A stretch of 43,036 bases of DNA from a virus. Its lineage: Duplodnaviria; Heunggongvirae; Uroviricota; Caudoviricetes. This document shows, piece after piece, positions 24,844-43,036 of this stretch (its first letter is position 1; each line of letters begins with the position of its first letter). The DNA lies in IMG/VR virus record IMGVR_UViG_2671180804_000003, positions 1-43,036 of that record; one strand, given 5' to 3'. Under the pieces are notes generated by a model, which worked only from the letters and a program-made list of their open reading frames with translations, was not told where the DNA came from and did no database searches. A program made the translations under genes and the position numbers.

Positions 24844-25248
24844 TCAAGCAGCAGGTTCGGATGGATAAACCTGCTCATACATCTGCTGAAGGGTGTCAAT
24901 AGCTTTGTTAGCCATTATCAATATAGCTTCCGCATCAGCCTTACTTAAAGTTCTATCAAGCTCGTAATCTGCCCATTTACGTCGGGTATGCAAATGTCTC
25001 AGCATTGTTCCCATAGAAATGAGTTTCATTTTTTCAAACGGCTCATTTCCTTTTAACCATGCATCATTTGTAAGATAGTCGCGAACAGCTTGGTGTGACG
25101 ACTTGTTTGGGCATTTCTCAAGCTTATCAAGCGTTTCATGATAAACTCCATAATACGCTCGACCAATGGCGTTTCTGTAACCGATTTCATCGTTGTGAGA
25201 AATGCATTTACCAGCAAAAACAATAAAATCTTTCCCCGATACGCTCAT
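24844..25248 (-). CDS. HEPN-like small protein (putative RNase-type toxin/effector)
   Basis: 134 aa; RAYYGVYH (R-x6-H) in a predicted first helix plus RRKWADYE, resembling HEPN hallmarks; AT-rich; start overlaps upstream stop (ATGA). Confidence 0.5.
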   Translation of the reverse strand: MSVSGKDFIVFAGKCISHNDEIGYRNAIGRAYYGVYHETLDKLEKCPNKSSHQAVRDYLTNDAWLKGNEPFEKMKLISMGTMLRHLHTRRKWADYELDRTLSKADAEAILIMANKAIDTLQQMYEQVYPSEPAA

Positions 25249-26003
25249 CAGTAAATCCCTCTTTTTTCATCGCTTTGAAACCAGGATGTAAAAGGGCTGT
25301 TCCGATAACTATCATCTGAGAGCAAAACCAACAGTTCCATGTTCATTTCAGCTAAAACCTGCGGATCAGCAGTTTGGGCTCTAACGATGAATGCATTGTC
25401 ATCATCTCCACCAAGATAATAGCTAACACTTGAACAGTTAATACCGCGCTTGTTCGCAATCTCTTCAGCTTGATCGCAAAGGGCTTCTAGTTCTCGAGAA
25501 GAAAGACGGGTAGCGTTTTTGAAATCAACAATCTGTTCAGCCATATAATTTCCCTGATTGATTATATCCTCTCGCTCTTGGCCATCATAAAGAGCAGCCA
25601 TTTTGAGGGAGAACTTTTTAACCAACTTGTCGTTGCCGATACAAAATGCAGCGTTTCTTGCTACAAGCCTCAGTTCATGTGAAGGGAAAAGCTCAACTAT
25701 TCTAAACAACTCAACGCGATGCTCATAGTTATGAGCCGAACGAGAAAGATACGCCAAGTAGTTTTGTGCGATCGTTGGACTCCCAGAGCTCATCGCGTCT
25801 TTGAATAAACGTACTGCATCAGAGTGACGCCCGAGAGTTCCATTAAGCCATGCATACGCATGTGCGCGCTCACTTATTGGAAGTTTAGCAATGTCGCGCT
25901 CAATTTCCGCAATAGTGTCTGTATCCGGGACTTCTCCCTTCTGGAAGTAATCGAGGATTGTTGCAAGCAGTTCTTGTTCTTTTGACTCAGGCTGTCCTGA
26001 CAT
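25248..26003 (-). CDS. Hypothetical helical protein, partner of HEPN-like gene
   Basis: About 251 aa from MSGQPESK; no recognisable catalytic motif; translationally coupled to downstream gene. Confidence 0.55.
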   Translation of the reverse strand: MSGQPESKEQELLATILDYFQKGEVPDTDTIAEIERDIAKLPISERAHAYAWLNGTLGRHSDAVRLFKDAMSSGSPTIAQNYLAYLSRSAHNYEHRVELFRIVELFPSHELRLVARNAAFCIGNDKLVKKFSLKMAALYDGQEREDIINQGNYMAEQIVDFKNATRLSSRELEALCDQAEEIANKRGINCSSVSYYLGGDDDNAFIVRAQTADPQVLAEMNMELLVLLSDDSYRNSPFTSWFQSDEKRGIY

Positions 26004-26124
26004 AATTTTCCCGAAGAAAACCAAATTCTGTATGTTTTCAATAGCTTCACTGGATAGGTTTTTATATTGCTGTCATCAGTATTGAAGCTTTTACGGGATT
26101 GTACAGGACCATCAGCGTTCTACT

Positions 26125-26228
26125 TGTGCATAAGAATTTAATAAACCTACAGACTTATCCACAGAAAAAAGAGTTATCAACAAAAAAAGTTATTCACAAC
26201 TTAACTAATAGCAAAATATTGTTGATAA
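26125..26228. promoter_or_regulatory. Cluster of DnaA-box-like 9-mers in cassette upstream region
   Basis: TTATCCACA (26155-63), TTATTCACA (26190-98), TTATGCACA on minus (26125-33), plus two TTATCAACA variants. Confidence 0.4.
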
Positions 26229-26350
26229 GCTGTGCGTAATTATCATATCCATCAAACTTACGCACATTAGAGCCTTGTGTTGCCTATCCATCGTTTTTTC
26301 CTATCAAAACGAAACGACATGCTTTTCTGCGATTAAAAAAGTATTCCGCA

Positions 26351-28951: not shown

Positions 28952-30889
28952 TCAGGCGGCTGCACCCGCCTTTTGATTTGCACATAATTCAGGAAGATTT
29001 GCTTCTACCAGCGCACGAGCGAACGGCGGCGGTACTGCGTTACCACAGCGCGCTACCTGCTTGTCTTTGGCGTAACGATTGCCGCGATAGTCCTGATCGA
29101 TAACGTAGCCGTCAGGGAAGCCCTGCGCCTTATAAAGCTCATGCGGTTGCAGCATGCGCATTCCGATATCGACGATCTGGTACTTAACCCCCTCGATCGT
29201 CACCAGCCATTCATCCTCGCTATCACCGCAGTAGGTTTCGAGGAATGTCCGGACCTCGCCAACGTGCTGGCCACCAGCGGTAATCGTCGGCATAGGTGTA
29301 TCCATGGTCTGACCGTCGCGGCAGGTTCCGCGCAGCTTCACCAGGTGCGACGCAACTACCGCGTGGTGATCAACAGTAGTGACTGAGTGGGCAGGCTCAT
29401 CCATACCAACACCCGGCCCCGTGTAATTCCCACCATAGTGCTTCGCCAGGAACGCGCTCACCGTTGCAAACTTATTACCACCAGCAGTGACCGTGCCGAG
29501 CGGGTTATTCAGTTGAAGAACACGCGGTTCTTGCCCTGGGCGTTCGCCGTACCCCATCTGGATCAGTGTTGGAGTTACCAGCTGCGACTTACCGCCACCA
29601 CCTGCAGTAATCGTCGCACTCGGTTCGTCAGCCCTGTGCCCAACACTGGCTCCAAACTGGCGGGCGATGACCGGCGCAACCACGCACGCGCGGGACTGCT
29701 TGAGGATTGTATGAGCGGGTTTATCCAGCGGGCGCGGCTTTGCCTGGTACTCACTGCCGCCATTGCCAGCCAGGAACGGTGTCAGGGCGGCCTCAACTAC
29801 GCCAAGCGCATGCCCATTCCCGCCCGGGCGCGCCGACGTACCAGCGGTGACAGTTGGTACCGGCTCGGTCACTGGCTGCCCGGTGGCCCCGGTGCGGAAT
29901 TTAGTAAGATGCGGTACCGCCAGTGCGTAGCCATGCTTTTTAGTGATGGTCTGCAATGGCTCTAACAACGATTGCCCGCGGAAACAGTCATAACCTCCTT
30001 TCGTCGTGGTGTGGTTACACTTCACGATGAAAGGTGATGCGCTTTCGATAACAAAGCGCTGGATGCCGCGCGCGATACGTTTGAGCGTATTTTCCGCCAG
30101 CGGCTTTTTGCGGTCGAAGATGGACCGGGCCGGGATATTCCAGTCAATGCACTCCGCCGCGGTACGCCATGGCGCCAGCTTGCCGCTTTGTACTTCCAGT
30201 GATTTTGGATCCCCATGAGTCGCTTCAGGCCAATGAATCTTGCGGCCGTCACAGCGCATGACCATGAAGAAACGCTTTCTGATCGTCGGCGCGCCGTAGT
30301 CACATGCGCGCAGCTCCCGATAATCAACCTCATAACCAAGCCCGGCGATCAGCTGTTGCGCCTGCTGGCCGTGCGGCTCAATGGCAAGGAATTCACAAAC
30401 CTCAGCCAGCGCAGGGTGATTCGCCGCGATCCCCGTCGACAGCATGCCGACAAATGCCTCGAATGTTTCGCCAGCACGCTCAGGATCTGGGCGTAATTCT
30501 TCATCCAGCAGCGGGCCCCATGTCTTAAACTCTTCGACGTTCTCCAGCATCATGACGCGGGGACGTACTGCCAGCGCCCAGCGCAGGACAATCCACGCCA
30601 GCCCGCGAATCTCTTTCTTAACCGGCTTAGCGCCCTTCGCCTTGGAAAAGTGGCGGCAGTCAGGGCTAAACCAGGCCAGACCGACAGGTTTACCGCTGGT
30701 GGCTGCGCTTGGGTCAACGTCAAACACCGACTCGCAATAATGCAGCGTGTCAGGGTGATTCGTCTTATGCATCGCAATAGCGTTTTCGTCGTGGTTGATA
30801 GCGATATCCACGCTACGCCCGATCGCCAGTTCAATGCCGGTACTCGCGCCGCCGCCACCAGCAAAGTTATCAACGATAATTTCACGCAT
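28952..30889 (-). CDS. DNA (cytosine-5)-methyltransferase
   Basis: Motif I DNFAGGGG, PC motif FSPDCRHFS, ENV motif MLENVEEF; start at MREIIVDNF. Confidence 0.85.
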   Translation of the reverse strand: MREIIVDNFAGGGGASTGIELAIGRSVDIAINHDENAIAMHKTNHPDTLHYCESVFDVDPSAATSGKPVGLAWFSPDCRHFSKAKGAKPVKKEIRGLAWIVLRWALAVRPRVMMLENVEEFKTWGPLLDEELRPDPERAGETFEAFVGMLSTGIAANHPALAEVCEFLAIEPHGQQAQQLIAGLGYEVDYRELRACDYGAPTIRKRFFMVMRCDGRKIHWPEATHGDPKSLEVQSGKLAPWRTAAECIDWNIPARSIFDRKKPLAENTLKRIARGIQRFVIESASPFIVKCNHTTTKGGYDCFRGQSLLEPLQTITKKHGYALAVPHLTKFRTGATGQPVTEPVPTVTAGTSARPGGNGHALGVVEAALTPFLAGNGGSEYQAKPRPLDKPAHTILKQSRACVVAPVIARQFGASVGHRADEPSATITAGGGGKSQLVTPTLIQMGYGERPGQEPRVLQLNNPLGTVTAGGNKFATVSAFLAKHYGGNYTGPGVGMDEPAHSVTTVDHHAVVASHLVKLRGTCRDGQTMDTPMPTITAGGQHVGEVRTFLETYCGDSEDEWLVTIEGVKYQIVDIGMRMLQPHELYKAQGFPDGYVIDQDYRGNRYAKDKQVARCGNAVPPPFARALVEANLPELCANQKAGAAA

Positions 30890-32216
30890 TGACGGCCCCC
30901 TGCATGCTGTTGAAGAGACCACCAGCGGTCGTGATAATTTCACTCGTCGGCATACGTTCGAGCCACAGCTGGTTGATATTGGCTTTCAGCTTGTTCTGCT
31001 GCGAAACAGGTAGAGCGTCAGCCCCTTCAATCTGGTTAAACACCAGTCCAACCTCAAGAGGCCAAACGCGCGATTCGTTTAACGCCTTGTCCTTTGATTC
31101 CTGCGTCTCACGGACATGGGCGCGGATCCCCCGAATATTTGACCATTTGGCTTTATCCAGGCTTTCCATGGTCGCGATGAATTCACTGTGGTTAATGCCG
31201 TATTCTTTCGCAGACTCAACGGCAACCGTGCGTAACCGCTCTGACATGTCTTGTTTCACGTCATCGCTATCAAAGGGCAATGTTTCCAGCCATGCATTAA
31301 CACCCACCAGGATGCTCTCGCTGATCAGCTTTTTCGCTCTGTCGATCGTCAGCGGTGAAACATTGGTAAATTCAGGGTTTTCCAGAGAGTCGGCAGCCCA
31401 GGTATGACCAAACTTTGACTCGCTGAAGGTGTACTCGTCTTTCTTGCCGAACGCCGCGACAACACAGGCCCAAGCCTCTACACCGCTGGTTTCCAGAATG
31501 GCTTTTTGGGTTAATGGCAGTTCTGCCTCTGATTTCTCCGGCACTACCTCAGCGTCCAGCTCCGGCGCCGCATCAGTTTGCGTTCTTCCCACGGCAAATT
31601 GGGCCAGCGACATCGCAGCACGGCCTTTGGCCTCCAGGTCGGTGCGGTTGATGTAACTGAAACGCTCACCCCGCCATGTTTTGTCGAAGACCACGATAGC
31701 GCCAGCAAAAAATGCGCTGGTGGGCTGCTGCTTTTCGTCTTTCGGCACGAACCATGTAGGAAGATCGAAACCAATTCGGCCACGGATGAATGTGACGTGA
31801 TCTGCCTCTACCGGCCACCACGTTTCACTCGTCGCAGACTTAATGAGAAAAACGTACCGACCACCCTTTTCTCGCATGGCCATAGCGTGGTTAATGATGT
31901 GGGTCATTCCGGTAACGGCCTGCTTGTCGTGGTACTGAGAGCGGCTGTAAGGCGGGTTGCCAAACCCGGCACCACCGAGTTCTGCCAGCCGCTCTGACCA
32001 ATCCTGCGTCAGGGCATTATCTTCAGCCGTGTACCATGCTGGGCACTTCGCGTTGCTGTCGTCGGCAAAAAGGTCCAACACCAGAGGGCCGAACATCGCA
32101 TTGATCCCCCAAAACAACAGATCCGGAGTGCGCCATTGATCACCGACCTCTTTCAACTCGTGTGCTGGTTTTGAACGGAGTTCAGCCAGTGCACGGCAGT
32201 ATTTATTTTCCATCAT
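30882..32216 (-). CDS. Phage Dam-type N6-adenine methyltransferase with about 250-aa C-terminal extension of unknown function
   Basis: N-terminal W.TP..LF and GFGNPPYS motif typical of phage Dam family; C-terminal half unassigned. Confidence 0.65.
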   Translation of the reverse strand: MMENKYCRALAELRSKPAHELKEVGDQWRTPDLLFWGINAMFGPLVLDLFADDSNAKCPAWYTAEDNALTQDWSERLAELGGAGFGNPPYSRSQYHDKQAVTGMTHIINHAMAMREKGGRYVFLIKSATSETWWPVEADHVTFIRGRIGFDLPTWFVPKDEKQQPTSAFFAGAIVVFDKTWRGERFSYINRTDLEAKGRAAMSLAQFAVGRTQTDAAPELDAEVVPEKSEAELPLTQKAILETSGVEAWACVVAAFGKKDEYTFSESKFGHTWAADSLENPEFTNVSPLTIDRAKKLISESILVGVNAWLETLPFDSDDVKQDMSERLRTVAVESAKEYGINHSEFIATMESLDKAKWSNIRGIRAHVRETQESKDKALNESRVWPLEVGLVFNQIEGADALPVSQQNKLKANINQLWLERMPTSEIITTAGGLFNSMQGAVNA

Positions 32217-33067
32217 CCTCTGAACCCCTCTGGAATCTTGCTATCAACCGGACCGAACTTCATCGGGTCATGTTTCTTTTCACCCCAGCTGTCACGCGGT
32301 GGCCGCCCCTTCTTGTCCCAGCGGATCCCGCTTTGCAGATAACCTTCAAATTTTTTCGGACCGAAGAGCGTTTCAGGACGCATGTACTGGTACTGCACGT
32401 CATTGCCGTTCCAGTGCTCATGCTTAAGGTCGATCACCAGCTGTAAGTCGCTAACGGTGTAACCTTCACGCAGACGAGCACGGATGTTTTCCAGAGAAGT
32501 TTTTGATTTTTGGTATCGTGAGCCACTAACCAGGTTCAGATGATTCAGAACCAGGATGGCGTTATCGGTGATCATCACTTCAGGGTCTGGTTGCGGCGCA
32601 ACCGGACAAGAAGGTTTTTTAACTGATGGATCAGTAGTTGTATTTACTGACGGATCCCCCCCAGATTCTGACGGGTGAAAACCGCCTTTTTCATCGTTTT
32701 TTGATGCCTCAGATTTTGACGCGTCGGTTTTTGAGGCATCAGATTTTGATGCGTCAGAATCTGACAGGTGAGAAAAGGCAGCAGCCTGCAATTTCGCAAC
32801 ATTGAGCTGGTAAACGTTCGATGCATTTCGGTTGCCTTTACGGCGCTGCTGGCGGGTTAACCAACCATCTTTTTCCAGCTGAGATATGGCTGTACGAACC
32901 GTGCTCTCACCAGCACCAATCTGGCGCGCGATGGTAGCGATGGAAGGCCAGCTAACCCCTTCATCACTGCTGAAGTCTGCCAGACGCGCCATGATGGCAA
33001 CGCTGGATAACTTCATGCCTGACGAAGCGCATGCATCCCATACGTAACCGGTTAATTTAGTGCTCAT
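32213..33067 (-). CDS. Replication initiation protein (N-terminal HTH, O-like organisation)
   Basis: N-terminal HTH (WPSIATIARQIGAGESTVR); central SDASK repeats encoded by tandem DNA repeats; C-terminal conserved phage region. Confidence 0.55.
   Translation of the reverse strand: MSTKLTGYVWDACASSGMKLSSVAIMARLADFSSDEGVSWPSIATIARQIGAGESTVRTAISQLEKDGWLTRQQRRKGNRNASNVYQLNVAKLQAAAFSHLSDSDASKSDASKTDASKSEASKNDEKGGFHPSESGGDPSVNTTTDPSVKKPSCPVAPQPDPEVMITDNAILVLNHLNLVSGSRYQKSKTSLENIRARLREGYTVSDLQLVIDLKHEHWNGNDVQYQYMRPETLFGPKKFEGYLQSGIRWDKKGRPPRDSWGEKKHDPMKFGPVDSKIPEGFRG
32661..32770. repeat. Tandem 15/30-bp repeats inside replication gene (iteron-like, candidate ori)
   Basis: TTGATGCCTCAGATTTTGACGCGTCGG / TTGAGGCATCAGATTTTGATGCGTCAG with flanking partial copies. 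Confidence 0.45.
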
Positions 33068-34333: not shown

Positions 34334-35053
34334 ATGACAACTATGCCTTGTGCGCTTAATCTTCTACTTATGGTGGAAAATGCTAAATACAAAGACTTTG
34401 CCGAAAGGCTAAACAGGTCTCTCCAAGAGCAATCTATTGGAGTTAAAGAATTGTCAGAGTTCAGTGGTGTCTCGTATGAGATGGCGCGGCGCTACACTCT
34501 TGGTACTGCAAAGCCGAGAGATGAGAAGATGATTCGAATTGCAGAAAGACTTGCCGTCTCACCGGCTTATCTTGATTATGGTGTGCCTGTTAATGGTGGC
34601 GACGCGCCAGCCAAAGGCACGGTCAGAATAGAGCAATTGGATGTTCATGCTTCAGCCGGTTCCGGATATATAAACCAACCATTCCCTACAATAGTGAGCT
34701 CAATAGAGATTCCAGAAGAGAGGATCTTCGAGTTGTTTGGTCGTAGAAGCCTTGATGGCATCGTCATGATAAATGTTGATGGCGATAGCATGATGCCCAC
34801 GCTTTGCCCAAAGGACCTGCTTTTCATAGACAGCAAGGTTGAACAATTCAGCGGCGACGGCGTTTATGTGTTCAATTTTGAAGACAGTACGTTCGTTAAA
34901 CGTTTGCAGAAGGTAAAAGGGCGCCGACTGGCAGTTCTTTCAGACAATGAACATTACCCGCCCTTCTTCATAGAGGAGCATGAAATGAATGAACTATACA
35001 TATTCGGCAAGCTAATCAGATGCTTACCTCTAAAAATGATAGAGTTTGGCTAA
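34334..35053 (+). CDS. CI-like repressor (XRE HTH plus S24 LexA-type autopeptidase domain)
   Basis: N-terminal HTH; C-terminal GDSMMPTL and FVKRL (Ser/Lys dyad); no SD upstream, consistent with a leaderless start. Confidence 0.85.
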   Translation: MTTMPCALNLLLMVENAKYKDFAERLNRSLQEQSIGVKELSEFSGVSYEMARRYTLGTAKPRDEKMIRIAERLAVSPAYLDYGVPVNGGDAPAKGTVRIEQLDVHASAGSGYINQPFPTIVSSIEIPEERIFELFGRRSLDGIVMINVDGDSMMPTLCPKDLLFIDSKVEQFSGDGVYVFNFEDSTFVKRLQKVKGRRLAVLSDNEHYPPFFIEEHEMNELYIFGKLIRCLPLKMIEFG

Positions 35054-42146: not shown

Positions 42147-42668
42147 TTACATTTTGTCTAACTGATATCGTGCGGCCACTAATGATACTCCGCATGCCTC
42201 AGCTACATTTTCAGCACTCATACCTTTCAGAACATTGGCATGAATAGCCGGTACTAATAGCTCACCACTGAAACATTTGGCTTGCCACTCACTACTCTCA
42301 AAAGGGCGGATTTTTACCCCTGGAGCAGAACGCGCGAAAGCAATGTTCCTGTGCATGAGAAGATGTCCCAGTTCATGTGCGGCAGTCATCCTGTCACGCC
42401 CTACCCCATTCAAAGCACCCTCGTAAATGTCTTCACGAAGAATCAATAAATGTTCCTGTGGGTAGGTGAGACCGTGCGTCTCCCCCATTTCCTTCATCCC
42501 ACCGATATGGAGTTCAAAATCTGGGATCAACTGAGGCAATGCGAACTCAATCACCTCCATAACAGGAAACATCAGACCTGTAATACCGAAGGTGCTCCGC
42601 AGAGATCTGACGATAGAACGTATTGATTCGCGGTTCTGCGGGGGTACACGATAATCTTGTCCGCTCAA
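42147..42668 (-). CDS. ImmA/IrrE-family zinc metallopeptidase
   Basis: HExxH motif (AAHELGHLLMH); immediately downstream of XRE HTH gene. Confidence 0.8.
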   Translation of the reverse strand: MSGQDYRVPPQNRESIRSIVRSLRSTFGITGLMFPVMEVIEFALPQLIPDFELHIGGMKEMGETHGLTYPQEHLLILREDIYEGALNGVGRDRMTAAHELGHLLMHRNIAFARSAPGVKIRPFESSEWQAKCFSGELLVPAIHANVLKGMSAENVAEACGVSLVAARYQLDKM

Positions 42669-42676
42669 AATGCCTC

Positions 42677-43036
42677 CTACTGCTGTTTTCGATTCAAAAT
42701 CTGTCGTAAATTCCGGAAGTCTTCTTCATTTAACTCATCAAAACTACGAGCGAACGCAATTGCGACTTCACGAGCATGGTCGTTCTTACCTGACAAGCTG
42801 ATCTCTACTGATTGCTGAGAGTCACGAGCTGCACTGATAAGCTTTTCTTTTTGTTTTTCATCCGCATTCAGATAGCCAATGATGCTATCAAGCACGGGTT
42901 TAGTGACCGCCCTTTTACCAGTTTCGATTGCTGAAAGATAAGACGAGGTCATACCCATAGCCTCAGCCATGCTTTTAAGCGTAAGCCCCAGGTCTATGCG
43001 CATTTTTCTTACTGTCTTACCAAACGGCGTTAACAT
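42677..43036 (-). CDS. XRE-family HTH transcriptional regulator
   Basis: N-terminal HTH (LTLKSMAEAMGMTSSYLSAIETGKR); ATG at window edge. Confidence 0.8.
   Translation of the reverse strand: MLTPFGKTVRKMRIDLGLTLKSMAEAMGMTSSYLSAIETGKRAVTKPVLDSIIGYLNADEKQKEKLISAARDSQQSVEISLSGKNDHAREVAIAFARSFDELNEEDFRNLRQILNRKQQ

What the first reader, a model, noticed from the sequence alone, without database searches (positions are those of the whole stretch)
32661..32770. Iteron-like tandem repeats inside the replication initiator gene
Two 30-bp tandem units with partial flanking copies, each containing small dyads (GACGCGTC), lie in the middle of the O-like gene and encode an SDASK-type linker. Lambda's origin is a set of iterons inside O, so this is a candidate origin.
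Basis: partly seen in the sequence, partly recalled or inferred. Interest (0 to 1): 0.45.

Follow-up and report, generated by a model that had tools for sequence, protein, structure and literature searches.

The report
Replication origin inside phage initiator gene
The repeats are real and are most likely the replication origin of a lambda-like E. coli prophage, built into the middle of the gene for its own initiator protein as in phage lambda: a well-supported but fairly ordinary kind of feature, in a phage group where it had not been described.

Summary
The repeat array is real, but its unit is 15 bp, not 30. Five tandem copies and one isolated copy share the palindromic core TCARAWTCTGA on the coding (minus) strand, at 32661-32766. 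They lie in the linker of a 284-aa initiator with an N-terminal winged helix and a C-terminal Phg_2220_C domain.

Comparison of about 160 related loci shows selection on the DNA rather than the peptide:
- Synonymous codon identity is 0.8-0.95 across 32588-32782, against about 0.5 in both flanking domains, while amino-acid identity falls.
- Ser codons in the linker are 85% TCA or TCT, against 21% in the N-terminal domain.
- One copy survives a compensated frameshift.
- A diverged subfamily with a different recognition helix carries a different repeat, in both orientations.

Downstream, in gene direction, come two GATC-led A+T-rich repeats and a G+C-rich palindrome. This order (iterons, A+T-rich stretch, dyad) matches oriλ.

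The GACGCGTC dyad it noted is the variable spacer, not the conserved core. The protein is not in Pfam's λ O family, and the phage has no helicase-loader gene. I rate it a new member of a known kind, of moderate-to-low interest.

The parts
32213..33067 (-). Initiator gene (284 aa). It lies in the early operon downstream of cI (34334-35053, +), a cro-like gene, a cII-like gene and a DUF4222/phrog_1170 gene.
   Evidence: ORF list. Pfam HTH_36 at aa 23-70 and Phg_2220_C at aa 173-245. PHROG 11896, 428 and 391, 'replication initiation O-like'.
32783..33067 (-). N-terminal winged-helix DNA-binding domain (aa 1-95), the presumed iteron reader.
   Evidence: Pfam HTH_36, GntR, MarR and DnaD_N hits. The recognition helix (G-ESTVRTAI) and wing (RRKGNRNASN) differ in the subfamily that carries a different repeat.
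32694..32766 (-). Five tandem 15-bp iterons. Cores on the minus strand: TCAGATTCTGA (32754-32764), TCAAAATCTGA (32739-32749), TCAAAAACCGA (32724-32734, degenerate), TCAAAATCTGA (32709-32719) and TCAAAAAACGA (32694-32704, degenerate). They are separated by variable 4-bp spacers.
   Evidence: Position matrix from 326 units in 67 non-redundant relatives. Codon bias TCA, AAA, TCT.
32661..32673 (-). Isolated sixth iteron, CGTCAGAATCTGG, 33 bp from the fifth. It is nearly invariant in relatives.
   Evidence: (column conservation 0.9-1.0 in 67 non-redundant sequences).
32614..32656 (-). Two GATC-led A+T-rich repeats 24 bp apart: GATCCGTCAGTAAATAC (32640-32656) and GATCCATCAGTTAAAAAAC (32614-32632). 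Candidate unwinding element. The 45 nt after GGGGATCCGTCAG are 66% A+T (range 60-71%) in relatives.
   Evidence: Conserved even in subfamilies that carry other iterons. Present as three copies at 12-bp spacing in Kp4866 and as a 24-bp unit 2.5 times in Proteus.
32585..32607 (.). G+C-rich palindrome GTCTGGTTGCG-G-CGCAACCGGAC at the distal end of the element.
   Evidence: Inverted repeat I22. An inverted repeat of at least 8 nt is found at this position in 46 of 67 relatives.
32588..32782 (.). Full stretch under DNA-level constraint (aa 96-160), taken as the extent of the predicted origin.
   Evidence: Sliding synonymous-codon identity is 0.73-0.95 here against about 0.5 in the flanks, while amino-acid identity falls to 0.66-0.9.
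32333..32551 (-). C-terminal Phg_2220_C domain, presumed to recruit the replisome. It is exchangeable: SfII-type relatives carry a different C-terminus after about aa 165.
   Evidence: Pfam. tblastn coverage patterns. Translations.

Best explanation
The stretch at about 32585-32782 is the vegetative replication origin of this lambdoid prophage. It is embedded in the linker-coding part of its own initiator gene.

Proposed mechanism, with its status:
1. Dimers of the N-terminal winged-helix domain bind the six TCARAWTCTGA sites (five at 15-bp spacing, one 33 bp further on) and build an O-some-like complex. Inferred.
2. This complex stresses the adjacent stretch, which is about 66% A+T and holds two GATC-led repeats, so that it opens. 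The G+C-rich palindrome bounds the element. Inferred.
3. The C-terminal Phg_2220_C domain then brings in the host helicase machinery. The phage encodes no P, DnaC or DnaB homologue of its own. Inferred.
4. Early rightward-type transcription passes through the site, as it does in λ. Inferred.

Shown here: the anatomy, the DNA-level purifying selection, and the co-variation of repeat sequence with the DNA-binding domain.
For: 1. Architecture and position. The gene has a wHTH domain, a linker and a Phg_2220_C domain, and matches O-like PHROGs. It sits after the cI/cro/cII-like genes.

2. Enrichment. The motif occurs 7 times against 0.5 expected, and 5 of the 7 are clustered here.

3. Selection on DNA.
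- In 76 non-redundant relatives, linker Ser codons are TCA 52% and TCT 33%, against 12% and 9% in the N-terminal domain. Lys AAA is 95% against 58%.
- The Asp third base, at the edge of the variable spacer, is free at 50/50.
- At conserved residues the commonest codon has frequency 0.93 in the block against 0.53 in the N-terminal domain (Mann-Whitney p = 2e-7). One Gly third base is free and serves as an internal control.
- Sliding synonymous identity peaks at 32588-32782, exactly where amino-acid identity dips.

4. Independence from reading frame.
- In StxKH16 (L009) and L160 the last copy is read in another frame (FTRQNLTPDP instead of FHPSESGGDP) but keeps CGTCAGAATCTG.
- In the Erwinia/Edwardsiella/Morganella subfamily the repeat occurs in both orientations within the ORF.

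5. Co-variation. That subfamily has a different recognition helix and wing and a different, λ-like repeat CCCCYCAA/TTGAGGGG, at the same 15-bp period. Kp4866 has TCARAATTTGA.

6. Module structure. The N-terminal domain and the repeats travel together, and the C-terminus is swapped after about aa 165.

7. Copy number varies from 3 to 9, as λ has 4 iterons and Stx phages 6 (PMC7466680).

8. The order iterons, A+T-rich stretch, dyad is the same as in oriλ (PMC3349717).
Against: - No experiment or coverage data shows initiation here.
- The A+T-rich stretch is only about 66% A+T and is not the least stable 40-bp window in the gene. In λ it is a distinct 38-bp high-A+T tract.
- The 15-bp spacing (about 1.4 helical turns) differs from λ's 20-24 bp. 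Which dyad a dimer reads cannot be decided from sequence: TCARA-W-TCTGA, or TCTGA-N4-TCARA.
- The protein has no detectable sequence similarity to λ O and fails Pfam PF04492.
- No helicase loader is encoded, so the recruitment step is unknown.
- The sequences compared are phylogenetically related, so the p-values are indicative only.
Confidence: 0.72

Rival explanations
1. The array is a protein feature only. It encodes a flexible Ser/Asp/Lys-rich pentapeptide linker that arose by slippage, and the DNA has no function of its own.
For: - The repeats are in frame and encode (S/T)(D/E)ASK.
- Copy number varies, as expected for slippage.
- The region is low in complexity and tolerates many substitutions.
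Against: - Synonymous sites are far more conserved than in the structured domains, while amino acids are less conserved.
- The non-repeated flanking block uses rare codons (GGG, GTA, TCA) almost invariantly across genera.
- The DNA word is kept through a frameshift and in inverted orientation.
- Slippage or gene conversion cannot explain conservation between genera.
Confidence: 0.04
2. The array is a DNA-level initiator-binding site, but its main role is not origin firing. It could serve autoregulation or titration of the initiator (handcuffing, or an incompatibility-like control), or act as a centromere-like site.
For: - The co-variation and synonymous constraint show only that the DNA is read, most likely by the N-terminal domain.
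- Cloned λ iterons do act as inhibitory titration sites (PMC3349717).
- The unwinding element is weak.
Against: - No other candidate origin is shared by the sibling phages. The only DnaA-box cluster (26125-26225) lies in a cassette absent from Flotzy, LLS and Eeyore.
- The array is accompanied by a conserved A+T-rich, GATC-led repeat block and a dyad, in the λ order.
- The array lies inside the gene, not at its promoter.
- Some relatives have their own partition genes elsewhere.
Confidence: 0.14
3. The constraint acts on RNA, through an mRNA or antisense-RNA structure (for translational control or stability), or it reflects a recombination 'boundary sequence' kept similar by frequent module exchange.
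For: - Both strands fold much better than shuffles (z = -4.8 and -5.5).
- The conserved block lies just upstream of the point where C-terminal modules are swapped.
Against: - The folding potential follows automatically from palindromic units.
- The spacers that would have to pair vary freely.
- There is no Rfam match above chance, and no promoter-like site in or near the array.
- Recombination alone does not explain base-specific conservation with free positions in between (GGN, the spacers), nor the co-variation with the recognition helix.
Confidence: 0.07

Closest known systems
oriλ inside gene O of phage lambda and Stx phages (O-some origin)
   Same: - The origin lies in the linker-coding middle of the initiator gene.
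- There are several dyad-symmetric initiator sites, each with an A-tract.
- Iteron number varies between relatives: 4 in λ, 6 in Stx phages, 3-9 here.
- An A+T-rich stretch and then a dyad follow, in the direction of transcription.
- The N-terminal domain and the iterons form one specificity module, and the C-terminus is exchangeable.
(PMC7466680, PMC3349717)
   Different: - The initiator shows no detectable sequence similarity to λ O and fails Pfam PF04492.
- The core is 11 bp at a 15-bp period, against 18-bp iterons at 20-24 bp.
- The A+T-rich stretch is weaker (about 66% A+T) and carries two conserved GATC-led repeats.
- No P-type helicase loader gene follows.
Replisome-organizer proteins of Gram-positive phages with an internal origin (SPP1 G38P/oriL; lactococcal TP901-1, Tuc2009). 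Recalled from memory, not tested here.
   Same: - The C-terminal Phg_2220_C domain is shared with proteins annotated 'replisome organizer' or 'DnaD-like' in Streptococcus, Lactobacillus, Oenococcus and Bacillus phages.
- Those systems also place initiator-binding repeats inside the initiator gene (from memory).
   Different: - Those phages encode a separate helicase loader and often a helicase.
- Their N-terminal domains and repeats are unrelated.
- I did not examine their repeats.
E. coli oriC 13-mer unwinding element (GATCTnTTnTTTT). Analogy from memory.
   Same: Short repeats that begin with GATC and run into A+T-rich sequence lie next to the initiator sites.
   Different: - There are only two copies, 24 bp apart.
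- They are less A+T-rich.
- There are no DnaA boxes nearby.
- No evidence of opening was obtained.

Membership tests
Lambdoid 'ori-in-O' origins (functional class) | Several initiator-binding repeats located inside the initiator gene, between its DNA-binding and C-terminal domains | tested here: met
   Six copies at 32661-32766, between HTH_36 (aa 23-70) and Phg_2220_C (aa 173-245).
Lambdoid 'ori-in-O' origins (functional class) | The repeats are under selection as DNA and match the specificity of the cognate initiator | tested here: met
   Synonymous-site constraint. Frame and orientation independence. Co-variation with the recognition helix. Binding itself was not tested.
Lambdoid 'ori-in-O' origins (functional class) | An A+T-rich unwinding region adjacent to the iterons | tested here: inconclusive
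   The adjacent 45 nt are 60-71% A+T in 67 relatives, against 50% for the gene. This is not the lowest-G+C window in the gene.
Lambdoid 'ori-in-O' origins (functional class) | Initiator-dependent replication starts at the site | not testable with these tools
   Needs a plasmid replication assay, marker-frequency analysis or 2D gels.
Lambdoid 'ori-in-O' origins (functional class) | A partner helicase loader (P, or a DnaC- or DnaB-like protein) encoded next to the initiator | tested here: not met
   The next genes are a Dam-family and a C5 methyltransferase. The complete sibling phage Flotzy has no such gene among its 64 CDS.
Pfam PF04492 Phage_rep_O (λ O protein family) | A match to the family profile above the gathering score | tested here: not met
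   λ O scores 123 bits. The window protein has no PF04492 hit at E <= 0.01. BLASTP and hhalign against λ O are not significant.
HTH_36 + Phg_2220_C 'O-like' architecture (the HHpred description of λ O in PMC5509034) | An N-terminal HTH_36 winged helix and a C-terminal PF09524 domain | tested here: met
   HTH_36 at 37.6 bits (cut-off 25) and Phg_2220_C at 81.5 bits (cut-off 27).

The most novel reading that the evidence does not exclude
This would be the origin of a distinct, widespread enterobacterial 'initiator-only' lambdoid replicon. A single O-like protein reads 11-bp palindromic iterons at a 15-bp pitch, which is off the helical repeat. It opens a conserved pair of GATC-led repeats that is shared by subfamilies with different iterons, and it loads the host helicase without any phage loader. 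Firing might be gated by adenine methylation of the two invariant GATC sites, since Dam-type methylase genes often lie immediately downstream.
Probability: 0.25. Interest if true: 0.55.

Novelty: new member of a known kind. Interest (0 to 1): 0.35.

Why it matters
- The analysis gives a concrete, testable origin and iteron consensus for a common group of temperate enterobacterial phages and prophages: relatives of SfII, SfIV, phiP27, CPS-53/e14 and a Nissle 1917 prophage. Their replication module is currently annotated only as 'O-like', 'primosomal protein' or 'conserved phage C-terminal domain protein'.
- It shows that the λ design (an origin inside the initiator's linker, with an exchangeable C-terminus) extends to initiators outside the λ O sequence family.
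- It raises a specific question: how is a helicase loaded when the phage brings no loader?
- In practice, the element could mark replication-module types and possible incompatibility between co-resident prophages.

Tried and rejected
- 30-bp unit. Rejected in favour of 15 bp, because copy number in relatives changes in 15-bp steps.
- GACGCGTC as the conserved dyad. Rejected, because its centre is the variable 4-bp spacer (matrix). A dimer might still straddle it.
- DnaA-dependent origin. There are no DnaA boxes near the array. The only cluster (26125-26225) lies in a cassette downstream of Q that is absent from sibling phages.
- GC-skew minimum. It coincides with the switch of transcription direction at 34-36 kb and is uninformative.
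- Known RNA family or internal promoter. None found.
- Homology to λ O by BLASTP and hhalign. None found.
- Solved structures. Only generic wHTH regulators at E > 0.01.
- Obligatory link to a methylase gene. Rejected: a methylase motif in the next ORF was found in only 18 of 64 loci with a scorable ORF. This is a lower bound, but SfIV has none.
- Two extra motif hits at 42514 and 42694. They are isolated, lie in unrelated genes, and are treated as chance.
- Literature searches for a described origin in SfII/SfIV-type phages found nothing. The library lacks most subscription journals, so this is not proof of absence.
- I did not run the large protein-database searches or structure prediction, because they would not change the verdict on the DNA element.

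Full report
**What is there**

The finding lies inside ORF 32213-33067 on the minus strand (284 aa). Pfam finds an N-terminal winged helix (HTH_36, aa 23-70, with weaker GntR, MarR and DnaD_N hits) and a C-terminal Phg_2220_C domain (aa 173-245). PHROG profiles name the protein 'primosomal protein', 'replication initiation protein' and 'replication initiation O-like'.

The gene sits in a lambdoid early region. Upstream lie a cI-like repressor (34334-35053, +), a cro-like gene, a cII-like gene and a DUF4222/phrog_1170 gene. Downstream lie a Dam-family and a C5 DNA methyltransferase, an antirepressor, a DUF968 protein and Q.

The gene is 95.6-99.9% identical to genes in Escherichia phages Phi06_2987 S, Flotzy, LLS and Eeyore. 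The full-length gene is present in 9 of 5,426 complete E. coli genomes, and 37 genomes have at least a partial match. PGAP annotates it 'conserved phage C-terminal domain-containing protein'.

**The observation**

Tandem Repeats Finder reports the array with two periods: 30 bp (2.1 copies, 87% matches) and 15 bp (4.0 copies, 77%). Read on the coding strand, the array is:

CTG TCAGATTCTGA CGCA TCAAAATCTGA TGCC TCAAAAACCGA CGCG TCAAAATCTGA GGCA TCAAAAAACGA ... (22 nt) ... TCAGAATCTGG

That is five tandem 15-bp units and one isolated copy. Each has the near-palindromic core TCARAWTCTGA, and 4-bp spacers separate the tandem ones.

The word TCARAWTCTG occurs 7 times in the window against 0.5 expected. 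None of 100 shuffles reached 7, and 5 of the hits lie in 32662-32764. It is a spacer with its flanks.

**Is the peptide or the DNA selected?**

I fetched 160 related loci from viral contigs and from one genome per species, plus annotated phages. They were reduced to 76 sequences less than 95% identical over the N-terminal coding region. Four results point to selection on the DNA.

1. Codon usage.
   - In the linker, Ser is TCA 52% and TCT 33%, against 12% and 9% in the N-terminal domain.
   - Lys is AAA 95% against 58%.
   - Asp, whose third base borders the spacer, is GAT/GAC 50/50.
2. Codon fixation.
   - At conserved residues of the N-terminal domain the commonest codon has mean frequency only 0.53, so synonymous sites there are well randomised.
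   - In the block F-x-P-S-E-S-G-G-D-P-S-V it is 0.93 (Mann-Whitney p = 2e-7).
   - Rare codons (GGG, GTA, TCA) are almost fixed there, while the third base of one Gly codon is free. That free base shows the sequences really are diverged.
3. Sliding analysis. In relatives that share both domains, synonymous codon identity is 0.73-0.95 from aa 96 to 165 (32573-32782), highest (above 0.8) up to aa 160, and about 0.5 on either side. Amino-acid identity dips in the same stretch.
4. The DNA word does not depend on the reading frame.
   - In Stx2a phage Stx2_KH16-043 and in a Citrobacter prophage, the last copy is read as FTRQNLTPDP instead of FHPSESGGDP. A compensated frameshift accounts for this, yet CGTCAGAATCTG is kept.
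   - In the Erwinia/Mixta/Morganella/Edwardsiella subfamily the repeat occurs in both orientations within the ORF and encodes different peptides.

**Co-variation with the DNA-binding domain**

Relatives whose N-terminal domain is at least 70% identical come from many genera: Escherichia, Shigella, Klebsiella, Enterobacter, Yersinia, Providencia, Proteus, Rahnella, Pantoea and others. All carry TCARAWTCTGA, in 3 to 9 tandem copies plus the isolated one.

Klebsiella phage Kp4866-6 (61% identical) has TCARAATTTGA.

The subfamily at about 60% identity has a one-residue insertion and different residues in the recognition helix (KSKTTVSAAI against G-ESTVRTAI) and in the wing. It carries a different repeat, λ-like in form, CCCCYCAA/TTGAGGGG. 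The period is again 15 bp and the position in the gene is the same.

The N-terminal domain and the repeats are inherited together, while the C-terminus is swapped after about aa 165. The SfII/SfIV type has a C-terminus with no Pfam match. This is the behaviour expected of an initiator and its cognate iterons.

In gene direction, the isolated iteron is followed by a block that is almost invariant across the whole family: GGGGATCCGTCAGTAA. It continues into a second GATC-led copy 24 bp later. The two copies are GATCCGTCAGTAAATAC (32640-32656) and GATCCATCAGTTAAAAAAC (32614-32632). The 45 nt after GGGGATCCGTCAG are 66% A+T (range 60-71%) in relatives, against 50% for the gene.

These GATC-led repeats are also kept in the subfamilies with other iterons. 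They occur three times at 12-bp spacing in Kp4866, and as a 24-bp unit 2.5 times in Proteus. They are therefore a common element rather than the specificity element.

A G+C-rich palindrome (32585-32607) ends the constrained stretch. An equivalent inverted repeat is found in 46 of 67 relatives.

In λ, read directly from NC_001416, four 18-bp iterons are followed by the A+T-rich tract and then an imperfect dyad, TTCGTCAGAGAATTCTGGCGAA (PMC3349717, PMC7466680). The order of parts is the same.

**Mechanism proposed**

- Shown: the anatomy, the DNA-level constraint and the co-variation.
- Inferred: dimers of the N-terminal domain occupy the six sites and form an O-some-like complex. The neighbouring GATC-led A+T-rich repeats open. 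The Phg_2220_C domain recruits host helicase-loading factors.

The last step is the least certain. Neither this window nor the complete sibling phage Flotzy encodes a P-, DnaC- or DnaB-like protein.

The register of binding cannot be decided from sequence.

**Rivals**

- A purely peptide-level repeat is excluded by the synonymous-site pattern.
- A titration or regulatory array remains possible (about 0.14), because only binding-type evidence is available and the unwinding element is modest.
- RNA structure is unlikely. The strong folding scores (z = -4.8 and -5.5) follow from the palindromic units, the spacers vary, and there is no Rfam hit or promoter.
- A DnaA-box cluster at 26125-26225 was considered as an alternative origin. 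It belongs to a cassette absent from the sibling phages that share this initiator.

**Comparison with known systems**

Functionally this is a λ-type 'origin inside O'. The protein is not a member of Pfam Phage_rep_O, and BLASTP and hhalign show no similarity to λ O. It does have the HTH_36 plus Phg_2220_C architecture that an HHpred analysis assigned to λ O (PMC5509034).

I found no description of the origin of SfII/SfIV-type phages in the searchable literature. Their genome papers mention only a 'replication module'. Most older and subscription papers are not covered by that search.

**Verdict**

Three corrections apply:
- The unit is 15 bp, not 30.
- The conserved core is TCARAWTCTGA.
- The element extends to about 32585.

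It is a new member of a known kind. Interest is moderate to low at 0.35. The loader-less design and the conserved GATC-led repeats are the parts most worth an experiment.

Noticed in passing
window 26100-26260: Three exact DnaA boxes (TTATGCACA, TTATCCACA, TTATTCACA) and two one-mismatch copies (TTATCAACA, one in each orientation) lie within about 110 bp of A+T-rich intergenic DNA. The region is downstream of Q and upstream of two genes with no Pfam match (25248-26024 and 24844-25248, minus strand). It is absent from the sibling phages Flotzy, LLS and Eeyore, so it looks like a moron cassette with DnaA-controlled expression or DnaA titration.
   Followed up: partly
window 28952-32216 and related loci: Two DNA methyltransferase genes directly follow the initiator gene: a 444-aa Dam-family N6-adenine enzyme with a long C-terminal extension, and a 663-aa C5-cytosine enzyme. 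A methylase motif is found in the next ORF in at least 18 of the 64 related loci that had a scorable ORF, but SfIV has none. The two invariant GATC sites in the predicted origin make a methylation link conceivable but unproven.
   Followed up: partly
L171 (phage lambda) 1160-1185 compared with window 32650-32675: The dyad to the right of λ's A+T-rich tract (CGTCAGAGAATTCTGGCGAATCC, encoding SSENSGES) resembles the isolated iteron block here (CGTCAGAATCTGGNGGGGATCC, encoding PSESGGD). The two initiators otherwise show no detectable similarity. This may be chance or a remnant of common ancestry of the linker and origin.
   Followed up: no
L159, L162, L164, L169 (Erwinia, Mixta, Morganella, Edwardsiella prophages), about nt 340-440 of the gene: The diverged subfamily carries 15-bp-period repeats CCCCYCAA...TTGAGGGG in both orientations. 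They have the same C-tract, A-rich centre and G-tract pattern as the λ iterons (TCCCTCAAAACGAGGGA).
   Followed up: partly
L008 (phage vB_EcoS-716R3) compared with L006 (Klebsiella phage 1 LV-2017): These two phages have nearly identical initiators but differ by two extra 15-bp units (SDTSK), so the iteron number changed recently. Both phages also carry partition-protein genes upstream, which suggests plasmid-like prophages.
   Followed up: no
window 32213-33067 compared with L001/L170 (Flotzy, whole genome): A complete, viable lambdoid phage carries this initiator as its only recognisable replication gene. There is no P, DnaC, DnaB or primase. SfII-type relatives replace the C-terminal domain by one with no Pfam match, annotated 'primosomal protein I' in some records.
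   Followed up: partly
window 42514-42523 and 42694-42703: Two isolated exact matches to TCAAAATCTG lie 180 bp apart on the plus strand. One is inside a gene for a 173-aa protein with an HExxH motif and the other inside the adjacent gene for a 119-aa protein (neither scanned against Pfam). Probably chance.
   Followed up: partly
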